In this document: positions 12,510-13,678 of the stretch, in pieces
Position numbering within the stretch: position 1 is the stretch's first letter
Layout of the letters: each line of letters starts with the position of its first letter
From: Promethearchaeota archaeon
Lineage (GTDB): Archaea; Asgardarchaeota; Hermodarchaeia; Hermodarchaeales; Hermodarchaeaceae
Assembly: GCA_048938385.1 (NCBI GenBank)
Contig: JBHLMG010000034.1
Location: 1-16,704, forward strand
Direction of reading: 5' to 3'
Length of the DNA stretch: 16,704 nucleotides
Notes under the pieces: model-generated
Seen by the model: the letters and a program-made list of their open reading frames with translations, nothing else
Databases searched by the model: none
Told to the model about the DNA's origin: nothing
Translations under genes and position numbers: made by a program

Positions 12510-13558
12510 ATGACGAAATCATGGCTACCTGCTGACAAGGAACGCAAACTCTTAACTCGCGCCGAGGACACCACTAACCCGGCTTATGGTCAGAACCCCC
12601 AGGAACGATCCATCTCTGACCTTTTGCAGGATGGGATCATCAACCTGGATAGCTTGTTCTAAAGAGTCCTTGGCTCTTTTCAAGCCCAGAAAAACCTCCT
12701 GGACCGACCAGCCATGAAGTGGTGTCCTGGGTCAAACGAATCTTGAACCTTGAACGCGCAGGTCATTCCGGTACCCTAGATCCTCAAGTTACTGGTGTTC
12801 TTCCTGTCATGTTAGGTAACGCAACAAAAATCGCAAACGCCTTACTCACCTCAGGAAAAGAATATGTCTGCATAATGCGTCTGCACCGACAGGAATCAGA
12901 GAAAAAGGTGCGCCAAGCCGTACAAGAATTTGTTGGAACCATCTATCAACGCCCTCCCCTTCGGTCCTCAGTTAAACGTCGAATCCGAACTCGCGAAATC
13001 TACTACATAGAGATTCTTGAAATTGAGGATCAGAATGTCTTATTTCGTGTCGGTTGCCAAGCTGGCACTTATATCCGGAAATTGGTCGCTGATATCGGTA
13101 CGGTGTTGGGCGGTGGCGCGCACATGGCAGAGCTTCGCCGTACACGAACAGGCCCCTTCAAAGAAGATGCAAGTCTAGCTACCCTTTATGATGTCATCGA
13201 TGCAGTTCATTTCTGGAAGGAAGAAAAGAATGAGCAACTCCTACGCCAATATATCTACCCTCTCGAGAATGGGGTGCAACATCTTCCCCACATCATCATC
13301 CGAGACACCGCTGTCGACGCTTTATGTCATGGGGCGAATTTAGCCGCTACTGGCGTATTATCGCTCCACGATGATATTAAAACAGGAGACACGATCGGAG
13401 TCAAGACCTTAAAAGGTGAACTGGTCGCCTTGGCAGTTGCGCAATTACCTACTCAGCAGATCCTTGAAGCCAGTTCTGGCATTGTTGCCAACACTTCACG
13501 CGTCATTTTACCTATTGGTACCTATCCTTCGATGTGGCGACGAAAATCCCGATCATAG
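12510..13558 (+). CDS. cbf5: H/ACA RNA-guided pseudouridine synthase Cbf5, two exons: join(12510..12650,12692..13558), 335 aa
   Basis: Exon 1 reads MTKSWLPADKERKLLTRAEDTTNPAYGQNPQERSISDLLQDGIINLD. Exon 2 reads KPPGPTSHEVVSWVKRIL...GHSGTLDP...RPPLRSSVKR...AGTYIRKL...ELRRTRTG and ends in a PUA domain. The exons are in different frames. Confidence 0.93.
12651..12691 (+). other. Predicted 41-nt BHB-type (tRNA splicing endonuclease) mRNA intron in cbf5
   Basis: Central helix CTGG(12645-48)/CCAG(12686-89); bulges ATA(12649-51) and AAA(12690-92); intron stem GCTTG(12652-56)/CAAGC(12681-85). Removal restores GAT-AAA-CCT-CCT (DKPP). Confidence 0.9.
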
Positions 13559-13562
13559 AATA

Positions 13563-13678
13563 TGGCGCCGCGGATGGGATTCGAACCCATGAGACCCGAA
13601 GGTCACAGGCTGTTTGGTTCTTGGTTGTAAGTGAAGCAAATTCCAGGCCTGCGCCGTAAACCACTTGGCTACCGCGGC
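13563..13678 (-). tRNA. tRNA-Ser(GGA) with a 29-nt intron at 37/38 and encoded CCA
   Basis: Reverse complement reads GCCGCGG-TA-GCC..TGG..GGC-G-CAGGC-CTGGAA-[intron]-A-GCCTG, long variable arm GACC-TTCG-GGTC, ATGGG-TTCGAAT-CCCAT, CCGCGGC-G-CCA. G73 discriminator and the long arm fit Ser. Confidence 0.95.
13612..13640 (-). other. tRNA-Ser intron (TTTGCTTCACTTACAACCAAGAACCAAAC)
   Basis: Removal gives a 7-nt anticodon loop CTGGAAA. Relaxed BHB: UGG of the loop pairs with intron CCA, with a C32-A mismatch. Confidence 0.88.

What the first reader, a model, noticed from the sequence alone, without database searches (positions are those of the whole stretch)
12627..12701. BHB-type mRNA intron in cbf5 at a non-classical position (motif I, D^KPPGPTSH)
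Seen: the cbf5 N-terminus (ATG 12510 ... GIINLD) hits TAA at 12660-62, and the conserved continuation KPPGPTSHEV resumes in another frame at 12692. The intervening 41 nt fold as CTGG/CCAG (4-bp central helix), an ATA bulge, a GCTTG/CAAGC stem and an inner AAAGAGTC/GGCTCTTT hairpin, followed by an AAA bulge. The exon side is an open loop possibly closed by CAGGA(T)GG 12627-34 / CCTCCTG 12695-701, so the motif is relaxed (BHL-like). Established: EndA cuts after the second nucleotide of each 3-nt bulge, which here predicts cuts after 12650 and 12691, exactly the junction that restores D-K-P-P. Known archaeal mRNA introns are rare, and crenarchaeal cbf5 introns sit in the catalytic Asp codon. That codon (GTLD, 12779-81) is uninterrupted here and this intron lies 29 codons upstream. 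Inference: an independent intron gain in the same gene, probably in an Asgard/TACK lineage. This would point to repeated selection for coupling pseudouridine synthase expression to tRNA-splicing activity.
Basis: partly seen in the sequence, partly recalled or inferred. Interest (0 to 1): 0.95.

Follow-up and report, generated by a model that had tools for sequence, protein, structure and literature searches.

The report
tRNA-type intron splitting Asgard cbf5
The only gene for the RNA-modifying enzyme Cbf5 in this Hermodarchaeota (Asgard) archaeon is broken by a 41-base insert shaped like a tRNA intron, at a site different from the one cbf5 intron known in print, so the mRNA very probably has to be cut and rejoined by the tRNA-splicing enzymes before the protein can be made.

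Summary
cbf5 is split into exon 1 (12510-12650, 47 codons) and exon 2 (12692-13558) by 41 nt (12651-12691). These fold into helix H (CUGG/CCAG), a 5' AUA bulge, helix h' (GCUUG/CAAGC), an apical hairpin and a 3' AAA.

Cutting after the second nucleotide of each 3-nt element gives ...NLD|KPPGPTSH..., a full-length Cbf5.

The same-site insert (38-43 nt) occurs in 13 of 13 genomes of the genus and in 4 more distant metagenome contigs. Stems show compensatory changes, including one exon-intron pair; loops evolve like synonymous sites, while bulges and stems are conserved.

The sister genus and about 360 other Asgard genomes are not interrupted at this site. Several other Asgard families carry the classical intron in the catalytic Asp codon instead.

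The genome encodes an (alpha-beta)2 EndA with the Crenarchaea-type loop, and RtcB.

No RNA data exist, so splicing is inferred (confidence about 0.85).

The proposed outer exon helix is not conserved, so the motif is relaxed (HBh'). The "selection on cbf5" inference is weakened, because dnaG and an EF-2 paralogue of this genome carry similar introns.

I found no paper describing this site. This scan has already noted the same intron in three related genomes (e1-2595660, e1-2790998, e1-5395623).

The parts
12510..12650 (+). cbf5 exon 1 (47 codons, MTKSW...GIINLD)
   Evidence: Translation. DKCLD Pfam hit 2.2e-09. tblastn to the intronless Cbf5 of the sister genus ends at residue 55.
12645..12648 (+). 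Helix H, exon strand CUGG (Leu codon CUG plus the G of the Asp codon)
   Evidence: Paired with 12686-89 in the MFE fold. Paired in 100% of 17 sequences. L158 has CUAG/CUAG, an exon-intron double change.
12649..12651 (+). 5' bulge AUA; predicted cut after 12650
   Evidence: Unpaired between H and h' in all 17 folds. Bulge columns are 97% identical across the 13 genus genomes. The cut rule (between the 2nd and 3rd bulge residue) is from PMC2738675.
12651..12691 (+). 41-nt intron
   Evidence: Its removal joins GAU|AAA to give NLD|KPPGPTSH. The homologous insert is 40-43 nt in 13 of 13 genus genomes and 38-43 nt in 4 metagenome contigs.
12652..12656 (+). Helix h', 5' strand GCUUG
   Evidence: Pairs with 12681-85. 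3 of 5 pairs show changes on both sides (GCCCG/CGGGC, GCGCG/CGCGC, GCUCG/CGAGC, GUUUG/CAAAC).
12661..12679 (+). Apical hairpin AAAGAGUC-CUU-GGCUCUUU
   Evidence: MFE fold. 4 of 8 pairs changed on both sides among 13 sequences. The strain variant T12667C turns a U.G pair into C-G.
12681..12685 (+). Helix h', 3' strand CAAGC
12686..12689 (+). Helix H, intron strand CCAG
   Evidence: The variants CCGG and CUAG keep pairing through G.U.
12690..12692 (+). 3' AAA (a bulge position without a closing helix); predicted cut after 12691
   Evidence: Unpaired in all folds. It is AAA in 16 sequences and AGA in L159. The cut places the third nucleotide as the first base of the Lys codon.
12692..13558 (+). 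cbf5 exon 2 (288 codons plus stop): motif I KPPGPTSH, TruB_N, TruB_C_2, PUA
   Evidence: There is no ATG/GTG/TTG between the upstream in-frame stop (TAG 12650-52) and 12692, and the first start is GTG 12719. Motif I therefore cannot be translated without splicing.
12779..12781 (+). Catalytic Asp codon GAT, uninterrupted (the classical cbf5 intron site)
   Evidence: Sequence. The classical position is defined in PMC2738675.

Best explanation
The 41 nt at 12651-12691 are an archaeal splicing-endonuclease (EndA) type intron in the cbf5 pre-mRNA.

Proposed mechanism:
1. In the transcript, the last exon-1 bases CUGG pair with CCAG at the 3' end of the intron. This forms the 4-bp central helix H.
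2. The 5' splice site lies in the AUA bulge between H and the intron helix h'.
3. The 3' splice site lies in an A-rich unpaired stretch on the other strand, directly after H. This is a relaxed HBh' (bulge-helix-loop) motif.
4. The (alpha-beta)2 EndA of this organism carries the Crenarchaea-type specificity loop. It cuts after the second nucleotide of each 3-nt element.
5. RtcB joins the exons and probably circularises the intron.
6. The joined mRNA encodes a 335-aa Cbf5. The unspliced mRNA gives only a 50-aa peptide.

Shown here: the anatomy, its conservation and covariation, the need for removal, and the presence of the enzymes. Inferred: the cleavage and ligation themselves.
For: - The junction restores NLD|KPPGPTSH exactly as in solved Cbf5 structures.
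- There is no second cbf5 in the genome.
- Exon 2 has no start codon that would include motif I.
- The same-site insert occurs in 13 of 13 genus genomes, with lengths of 40, 41, 42 and 43 nt. The 42-nt ones carry in-frame stops. It also occurs in 4 further contigs at 67-72% protein identity.
- Covariation: H is 100% paired, and 3 of 5 h' pairs changed on both sides. 0 of 500 shuffles reach the score, and slid controls give at most 54% paired.
- Selection: fourfold sites are 39.5% identical and unpaired intron positions 37%. The intron strand of H is 86%, h' 83% and the bulges 97% identical.
- EndA alpha matches the A. pernix catalytic subunit at 6e-46. The specificity loop aligns without gaps, and Tyr/His/Lys are present. 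A second paralogue lacks the His.
- PMC5829648 reports that Asgard EndA is (alpha-beta)2 with this loop.
- RtcB is present.
- 17 of 32 tRNA genes have introns.
- dnaG and an EF-2 paralogue of the same genome carry like introns.
- The insert stands in DNA of four runs from two studies.
Against: - No RNA data. No RNA run holding the stretch was listed, and a scan of JGI contigs found no spliced form from this genus.
- The 3' site has no closing outer helix, so the motif is not a canonical hBHBh'. Cleavage of such a motif by this particular enzyme is untested.
- In most relatives, a U before CUGG could pair with the first A of the 3' element and lengthen H to 5 bp.
- A competing exon-1 hairpin can sequester the CUGG strand.
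Confidence: 0.85

Rival explanations
1. Translational recoding: the ribosome bypasses or frameshifts over the insert, as in T4 gene 60 hopping, so no RNA splicing is needed.
For: The insert holds a stable hairpin just after the Asp codon. Lengths near 40-50 nt are in the range of known bypass gaps (own knowledge).
Against: - There is no matching take-off and landing codon: GAU before the insert, but CAG-AA before the Lys codon.
- No stop codon follows the take-off codon directly.
- Insert lengths of 38-43 nt would need different frame shifts in different species.
- What is conserved is the H/bulge/h' geometry, including pairing between exon and intron. Bypassing has no use for that.
Confidence: 0.04
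2. Split or decaying gene: the N-terminal 50-aa peptide and a C-terminal protein starting at GTG 12719 are made separately, or the gene is a pseudogene.
For: Public gene callers annotate only exon-2 ORFs of 247-310 aa without the DKCLD domain. This holds for 32 of the listed clusters at 67% identity or more.
Against: - KPPGPTSHE (motif I) lies upstream of every possible start, yet it is conserved at protein level with synonymous changes in 17 sequences.
- Both exons are under strong purifying selection: first and second codon positions are 91% identical against 39.5% at fourfold sites.
- It is the only cbf5 copy.
Confidence: 0.04
3. Assembly or sequencing artefact: the insert is not in the real DNA.
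For: None found.
Against: Independent contigs from four runs of two studies carry it without gaps. So do 13 separately assembled genomes and 4 further metagenome contigs.
Confidence: 0.01
4. The intron is spliced, but it is not an independent gain. It moved from the classical Asp-codon site or from a tRNA gene (for example the neighbouring tRNA-Ser(GGA), which shares the exon context CCUGGA) by reverse splicing or transposition.
For: - Classical-site introns of Jordarchaeia also begin AGCUU and end GAA.
- The adjacent tRNA-Ser has CCUGGAA| before its intron, against CCUGGAU| here (lead from note e1-5477700).
Against: - nhmmer and blastn with the intron family find nothing else in the genome. 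The next best hit has E = 0.82, and the tRNA-Ser intron is not hit.
- The shared letters are those needed for the bulges and for pairing with CUGG.
- The nearest outgroups have no intron at either cbf5 site.
Confidence: 0.1

Closest known systems
Classical cbf5 pre-mRNA intron of Crenarchaeota (Desulfurococcales, Sulfolobales; Watanabe 2002, Yoshinari 2006, Yokobori 2009 = PMC2738675)
   Same: - Same gene and the same size class (16-44 bp there, 38-43 nt here).
- Mostly relaxed BHB motifs, with cuts between the 2nd and 3rd bulge residue.
- The host has a heterotetrameric EndA with the specificity loop.
- The unspliced message cannot give an active enzyme.
   Different: - Position: the classical intron lies between the 1st and 2nd letter of the catalytic Asp codon. 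This one lies between the Asp and Lys codons of NLD|KPP, 29 codons upstream, and the classical site is intact here.
- Host: Asgard (Hermodarchaeota), not Crenarchaeota.
- Splicing of the classical intron has been shown by cDNA and enzyme assays. Splicing of this one has not.
Classical-site cbf5 introns in other Asgard lineages (Jordarchaeia and Freyarchaeota loci L094, L100, L103, L105, L109; families f7, f12, f20, f31)
   Same: Same phylum, same gene and same enzymes. 3' bulge AAA and 5' bulge AGA.
   Different: They sit in the Asp codon (CUAG|...|AUCC). They fold as full hBHBh' with an exon-exon outer helix GGGA/UCCC. The Hermodarchaeota intron has no conserved outer helix.
Non-canonical (relaxed, HBh'/BHL) tRNA introns of TACK and Asgard archaea
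   Same: Same geometry and the same EndA/RtcB pathway. 17 of 32 tRNA genes of this genome have introns.
   Different: The substrate is an mRNA coding region. The exon strand of H is constrained by codons, with Leu fixed as CUG or CUA.
HAC1/XBP1 unconventional mRNA splicing (IRE1 plus tRNA ligase/RtcB)
   Same: Endonuclease-plus-ligase removal of a short intron from an mRNA. The intron shifts the frame, and RtcB is the ligase in metazoa (own knowledge; PMC13149111).
   Different: A different nuclease (IRE1, not EndA) and a different RNA motif. HAC1/XBP1 splicing is demonstrably regulated. No regulation is shown here.

Membership tests
Archaeal EndA-spliced (BHB-type) intron | 4-bp central helix with a 3-nt bulge on each strand | tested here: met
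   H CUGG/CCAG with AUA (5') and AAA (3') directly flanking it on opposite strands. The same holds in all 17 homologues.
Archaeal EndA-spliced (BHB-type) intron | Both flanking helices h (exon-exon) and h' (intron), i.e. the strict hBHBh' form | tested here: not met
   h' is present and covaries. The proposed outer helix 12627-34/12695-701 is not adjacent to the bulge and is not conserved. The motif is therefore the relaxed HBh' form, which (alpha-beta)2 enzymes with the loop are reported to cut (PMC5829648).
Archaeal EndA-spliced (BHB-type) intron | Cuts after the 2nd bulge nucleotide give a functional product | tested here: met
   Cuts after 12650 and 12691 give GAU|AAA = D|K and a full-length Cbf5. 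The same rule works in all 17 sequences.
Archaeal EndA-spliced (BHB-type) intron | Host encodes a broad-specificity EndA and the RtcB ligase | tested here: met
   Two EndA paralogues: alpha with Tyr/His/Lys and the CSL/L1 loop, and beta without the His. RtcB at 3.2e-174.
Archaeal EndA-spliced (BHB-type) intron | Spliced RNA and excised (circular) intron observed | not testable with these tools
   No RNA run was listed. No spliced contig of this genus was found in JGI contigs.
Classical cbf5 intron (orthologous intron of Desulfurococcales and Sulfolobales) | Insertion between the 1st and 2nd letter of the catalytic Asp codon | tested here: not met
   GAT 12779-81 is uninterrupted, and the insert lies 29 codons upstream. 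It works like the classical intron but is not that intron.
Programmed translational bypass (gene 60 type) | Matched take-off and landing codons, and a stop right after take-off | tested here: not met
   GAU is followed by AGC. There is no GAU/GAC at the 3' end of the insert.

The most novel reading that the evidence does not exclude
cbf5 has been colonised by endonuclease-type introns at two separate sites in archaea, both represented in Asgard lineages. The Hermodarchaeota intron acts as a splicing-dependent gate on Cbf5 synthesis. A competing exon-1 hairpin (12625-12649) that sequesters the CUGG strand may tune how much message is spliced, which would make it an archaeal counterpart of HAC1/XBP1-type regulated mRNA splicing.
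Probability: 0.15. Interest if true: 0.8.

Novelty: new variant of a known kind. Interest (0 to 1): 0.6.

Why it matters
In print, splicing inside an archaeal coding sequence is documented only for cbf5 of Crenarchaeota, at one site (PMC2738675; still the only references cited in 2025).

- **A second site.** The same gene has a second, separately placed intron in the archaeal group closest to eukaryotes. It has been kept over a divergence in which synonymous sites are saturated.
- **mRNA splicing as routine.** Together with the like introns in dnaG and an EF-2 paralogue of this genome, this suggests that EndA/RtcB splicing of mRNAs is routine in some Asgard lineages. That bears on ideas about early intron and mRNA-splicing evolution.
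- **Annotation.** Public gene calls for this clade list a truncated Cbf5 without motif I and the N-terminal domain (32 clusters). This can mislead marker-gene and metabolic inference.

Tried and rejected
- **RNA evidence.** No RNA holder was listed for the stretch or for the gene. One scan of JGI metagenome contigs for the spliced junction found only distant homologues at 52-60% identity.
- **Rfam.** No family other than the neighbouring tRNA.
- **Single-sequence folding.** The fold of the 91-nt region is not better than shuffles (z = -0.64).
Not conserved.
- **Other copies of the intron in the genome, and likeness to the adjacent tRNA-Ser intron (note e1-5477700).** nhmmer and blastn found nothing.
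- **Rooting the gain.** The Cbf5 tree leaves the intronless sister genus and the intron-bearing lineages in a polytomy. Gain after the split, and gain before it followed by loss, both remain open.
- **Rejected readings.** Translational bypass, split gene, pseudogene and misassembly (see the rival explanations).
- **Not attempted.** A genome-wide de novo scan for further mRNA introns. I only checked two leads from earlier notes.

Full report
**What is in the sequence**

The frame that starts at ATG 12510 reads MTKSW...GIINLDSLF and stops at TAA 12660-62. From 12692, in another frame, the sequence reads KPPGPTSHEVVSW... to a stop at 13556-58. This second piece matches solved Cbf5 structures from residue 53 to the end (Pyrococcus 2AUS, 6.9e-111). 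It carries TruB_N, TruB_C_2 and PUA domains, and the 47-residue first piece hits the DKCLD N-terminal domain.

Removing 12651-12691 (41 nt) joins GAU|AAA and gives ...GIINLD|KPPGPTSH..., as in uninterrupted Cbf5.

In the exon-2 frame, the codons between the upstream stop (TAG 12650-52) and 12692 hold no ATG, GTG or TTG. The first start is GTG 12719. Motif I therefore cannot be translated from the unspliced message. The catalytic Asp codon GAT 12779-81 is intact, and the junction lies 29 codons upstream of it.

**The fold**

- helix H, CUGG 12645-48 with CCAG 12686-89
- a 3-nt bulge AUA 12649-51
- helix h', GCUUG 12652-56 with CAAGC 12681-85
- an apical hairpin 12661-79
- AAA 12690-92 on the other strand, right after H

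The rule for archaeal splicing endonuclease is cleavage between the second and third residue of each bulge (PMC2738675). It predicts cuts after 12650 and 12691, which is exactly the junction that restores the frame.

**Host and relatives**

Names of the closest public relatives place the window in Hermodarchaeota, an Asgard lineage. The genome held is 2.48 Mb in 51 contigs and about 90% complete.

- All 13 genomes of the same genus that have the gene carry an insert of 40, 41, 42 or 43 nt at the same place. The 42-nt versions are in frame but contain stop codons.
- The four genomes of the sister genus read NLDKPPGP without interruption.
- A protein search showed that public gene calls at 67% identity or more are nearly all exon-2-only ORFs of 247-310 residues lacking the DKCLD domain (32 clusters). 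Six clusters like the sister genus are full length or carry that domain.
- Four of the more distant truncated ones (67-72% identity, from other metagenomes) were fetched. They carry the same-site insert, 38-43 nt long.

**Covariation and selection**

Across the 17 sequences, H and h' are paired in 97.4% of cells, and H in 100%.
- One H pair changed on both sides: exon CUA with intron CUAG in L158, against CUG with CCAG.
- Three of five h' pairs changed on both sides: GCCCG/CGGGC, GCGCG/CGCGC, GCUCG/CGAGC and GUUUG/CAAAC.
- No shuffle out of 500 reaches the covariation score, and sliding the partner by one to three columns drops pairing to 54% or less.
- Among the 13 genus members, the apical hairpin has four pairs with double changes.

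Pairwise identity across the 13 genus genomes:

| Sites | Identity |
|---|---|
| Fourfold degenerate sites of exon 2 | 39.5% |
| Unpaired intron interior | 37% |
| Intron strand of H | 86% |
| h' | 83% |
| Bulges | 97% |
| First and second codon positions | 91% |

The elements an endonuclease would read are therefore under selection, and the loops are not. The motif is thus the relaxed HBh' (bulge-helix-loop) kind.

**Not an artefact, and the only copy**

Contigs from four sequencing runs of two studies span the insert without gaps or joined forms. One strain variant (T12667C) turns a U.G pair of the hairpin into C-G. The genome has no second cbf5.

**The machinery**

The genome has two EndA paralogues.
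- The 186-aa one matches the catalytic subunit of the Aeropyrum pernix heterotetramer at 6e-46. It has the catalytic Tyr, His and Lys, and a gap-free alignment through the Crenarchaea-specific loop.
- The 204-aa one lacks the His and fits a structural beta subunit.

PMC5829648 reports that Asgard archaea have this (alpha-beta)2 type with the loop that gives broad specificity. RtcB is present. ARAGORN with introns allowed finds introns in 17 of 32 tRNA genes.

**Distribution of cbf5 introns in the phylum**

I searched 400 Asgard genomes with an intronless Cbf5, and analysed about 140 loci by tblastn. Only two kinds of interruption by short inserts appeared:
- the NLD|KPP site, found only in the Hermodarchaeota lineages above
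- the classical site

The classical site is split as CUAG|...|AUCC, between the first and second letter of the Asp codon. It occurs in four other families and in loci named Jordarchaeia and Freyarchaeota. Those introns fold as full hBHBh' motifs with an exon-exon outer helix. The nearest outgroups of the Hermodarchaeota clade have neither intron.

A Cbf5 tree supports the Hermodarchaeota clade (100/99) but leaves the intronless genus and the intron-bearing lineages unresolved. The intron was therefore gained either after that split, or before it and then lost precisely in the sister genus. Either way, a separate gain from the classical intron is the simplest reading. Movement from another site cannot be excluded, but no homologous sequence exists elsewhere in the genome.

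**Context from earlier notes of this scan**

The same intron had already been noted in three related genomes (e1-2595660, e1-5395623, and e1-2790998 with an intein). My data agree. The 40-nt and 42-nt versions are, and the intein with a LAGLIDADG domain in the cbf5 of G006 is confirmed.

Notes on this same genome pointed to further mRNA introns. I checked two:
- dnaG has a 28-nt insert whose removal gives ...TEGLLGEDLD....
- An EF-2 paralogue has a 31-nt insert whose removal gives ...EEQRRGITIK....

In this lineage cbf5 is one of several interrupted protein genes, so special selection on cbf5 is not needed to explain the intron.

**Literature**

The library holds no paper with cbf5, Asgard and intron together. 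A 2025 structural paper on these enzymes still cites only the 2002, 2006 and 2009 cbf5 papers for pre-mRNA splicing. The search covers open-access papers and preprints only.

**Verdict**

The best explanation is an EndA/RtcB-spliced intron at a new site of cbf5 in an Asgard lineage (confidence about 0.85). Direct RNA evidence is missing. It works like the classical cbf5 intron but is not that intron. The idea of a regulatory coupling remains speculation.

Noticed in passing
window 13563-13678 (-): tRNA-Ser(GGA) with a 29-nt intron at the canonical position, 5 nt after the cbf5 stop on the other strand. The default ARAGORN tool missed it. Rfam and ARAGORN with introns allowed found it. Its exon context CCUGGAA| resembles the CCUGGAU| of cbf5.
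   Followed up: partly
L094:1572-1632, L100, L103, L105, L109, L027:1468-1528, L029:1446-1516, L143/L149, L145/L150, L146/L151, L153-L155: The classical cbf5 intron (between the 1st and 2nd letter of the catalytic Asp codon, roughly 20-40 nt) occurs in several Asgard families, including loci named Jordarchaeia and Freyarchaeota. It has a full hBHBh' fold. In print this site is described for Crenarchaeota only.
   Followed up: partly
L031:1-1941 (-) (G006); also G011 (L030) and G042 (L147/L148): In these genomes cbf5 also carries an in-frame insert of about 530 residues after about residue 140 of exon 2. For G006 it has Intein_splicing and LAGLIDADG domains, so G006 needs both RNA and protein splicing. 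G011 and G042 were inferred only from the same split position and a long open frame of about 840-860 aa.
   Followed up: partly
own genome G000:C23:180501-180528 (-): A 28-nt BHB-type insert in dnaG (H GCCU/GGGC, 9-bp inner stem). Its removal gives ...GQTEGLLGEDLDLRELQ....
   Followed up: partly
own genome G000:C23:40400-40430 (-): A 31-nt BHB-type insert in an EF-2 paralogue (H GGGG/CCCC, h' CGGU/ACCG). Its removal gives ...DYLEEEQRRGITIKSANI....
   Followed up: partly
window 12625-12649: RNAalifold on the wider alignment prefers an exon-1 hairpin (12625-30 with 12644-49, and 12632-34 with 12640-42). It competes with the intron for the CUGG strand. It shows only one-sided changes and lies wholly in conserved codons, so its reality is open.
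   Followed up: no
window 12667: The strain variant T>C in contigs of a second study (runs X5, X6) converts the U.G pair 12667-12673 of the apical hairpin into C-G.
   Followed up: no
L162:1952-2951, L163:526-1043: Two JGI metagenome contigs of distant archaea (52-60% identity). Their cbf5 match is split near the catalytic Asp, probably further classical-site introns.
   Followed up: no
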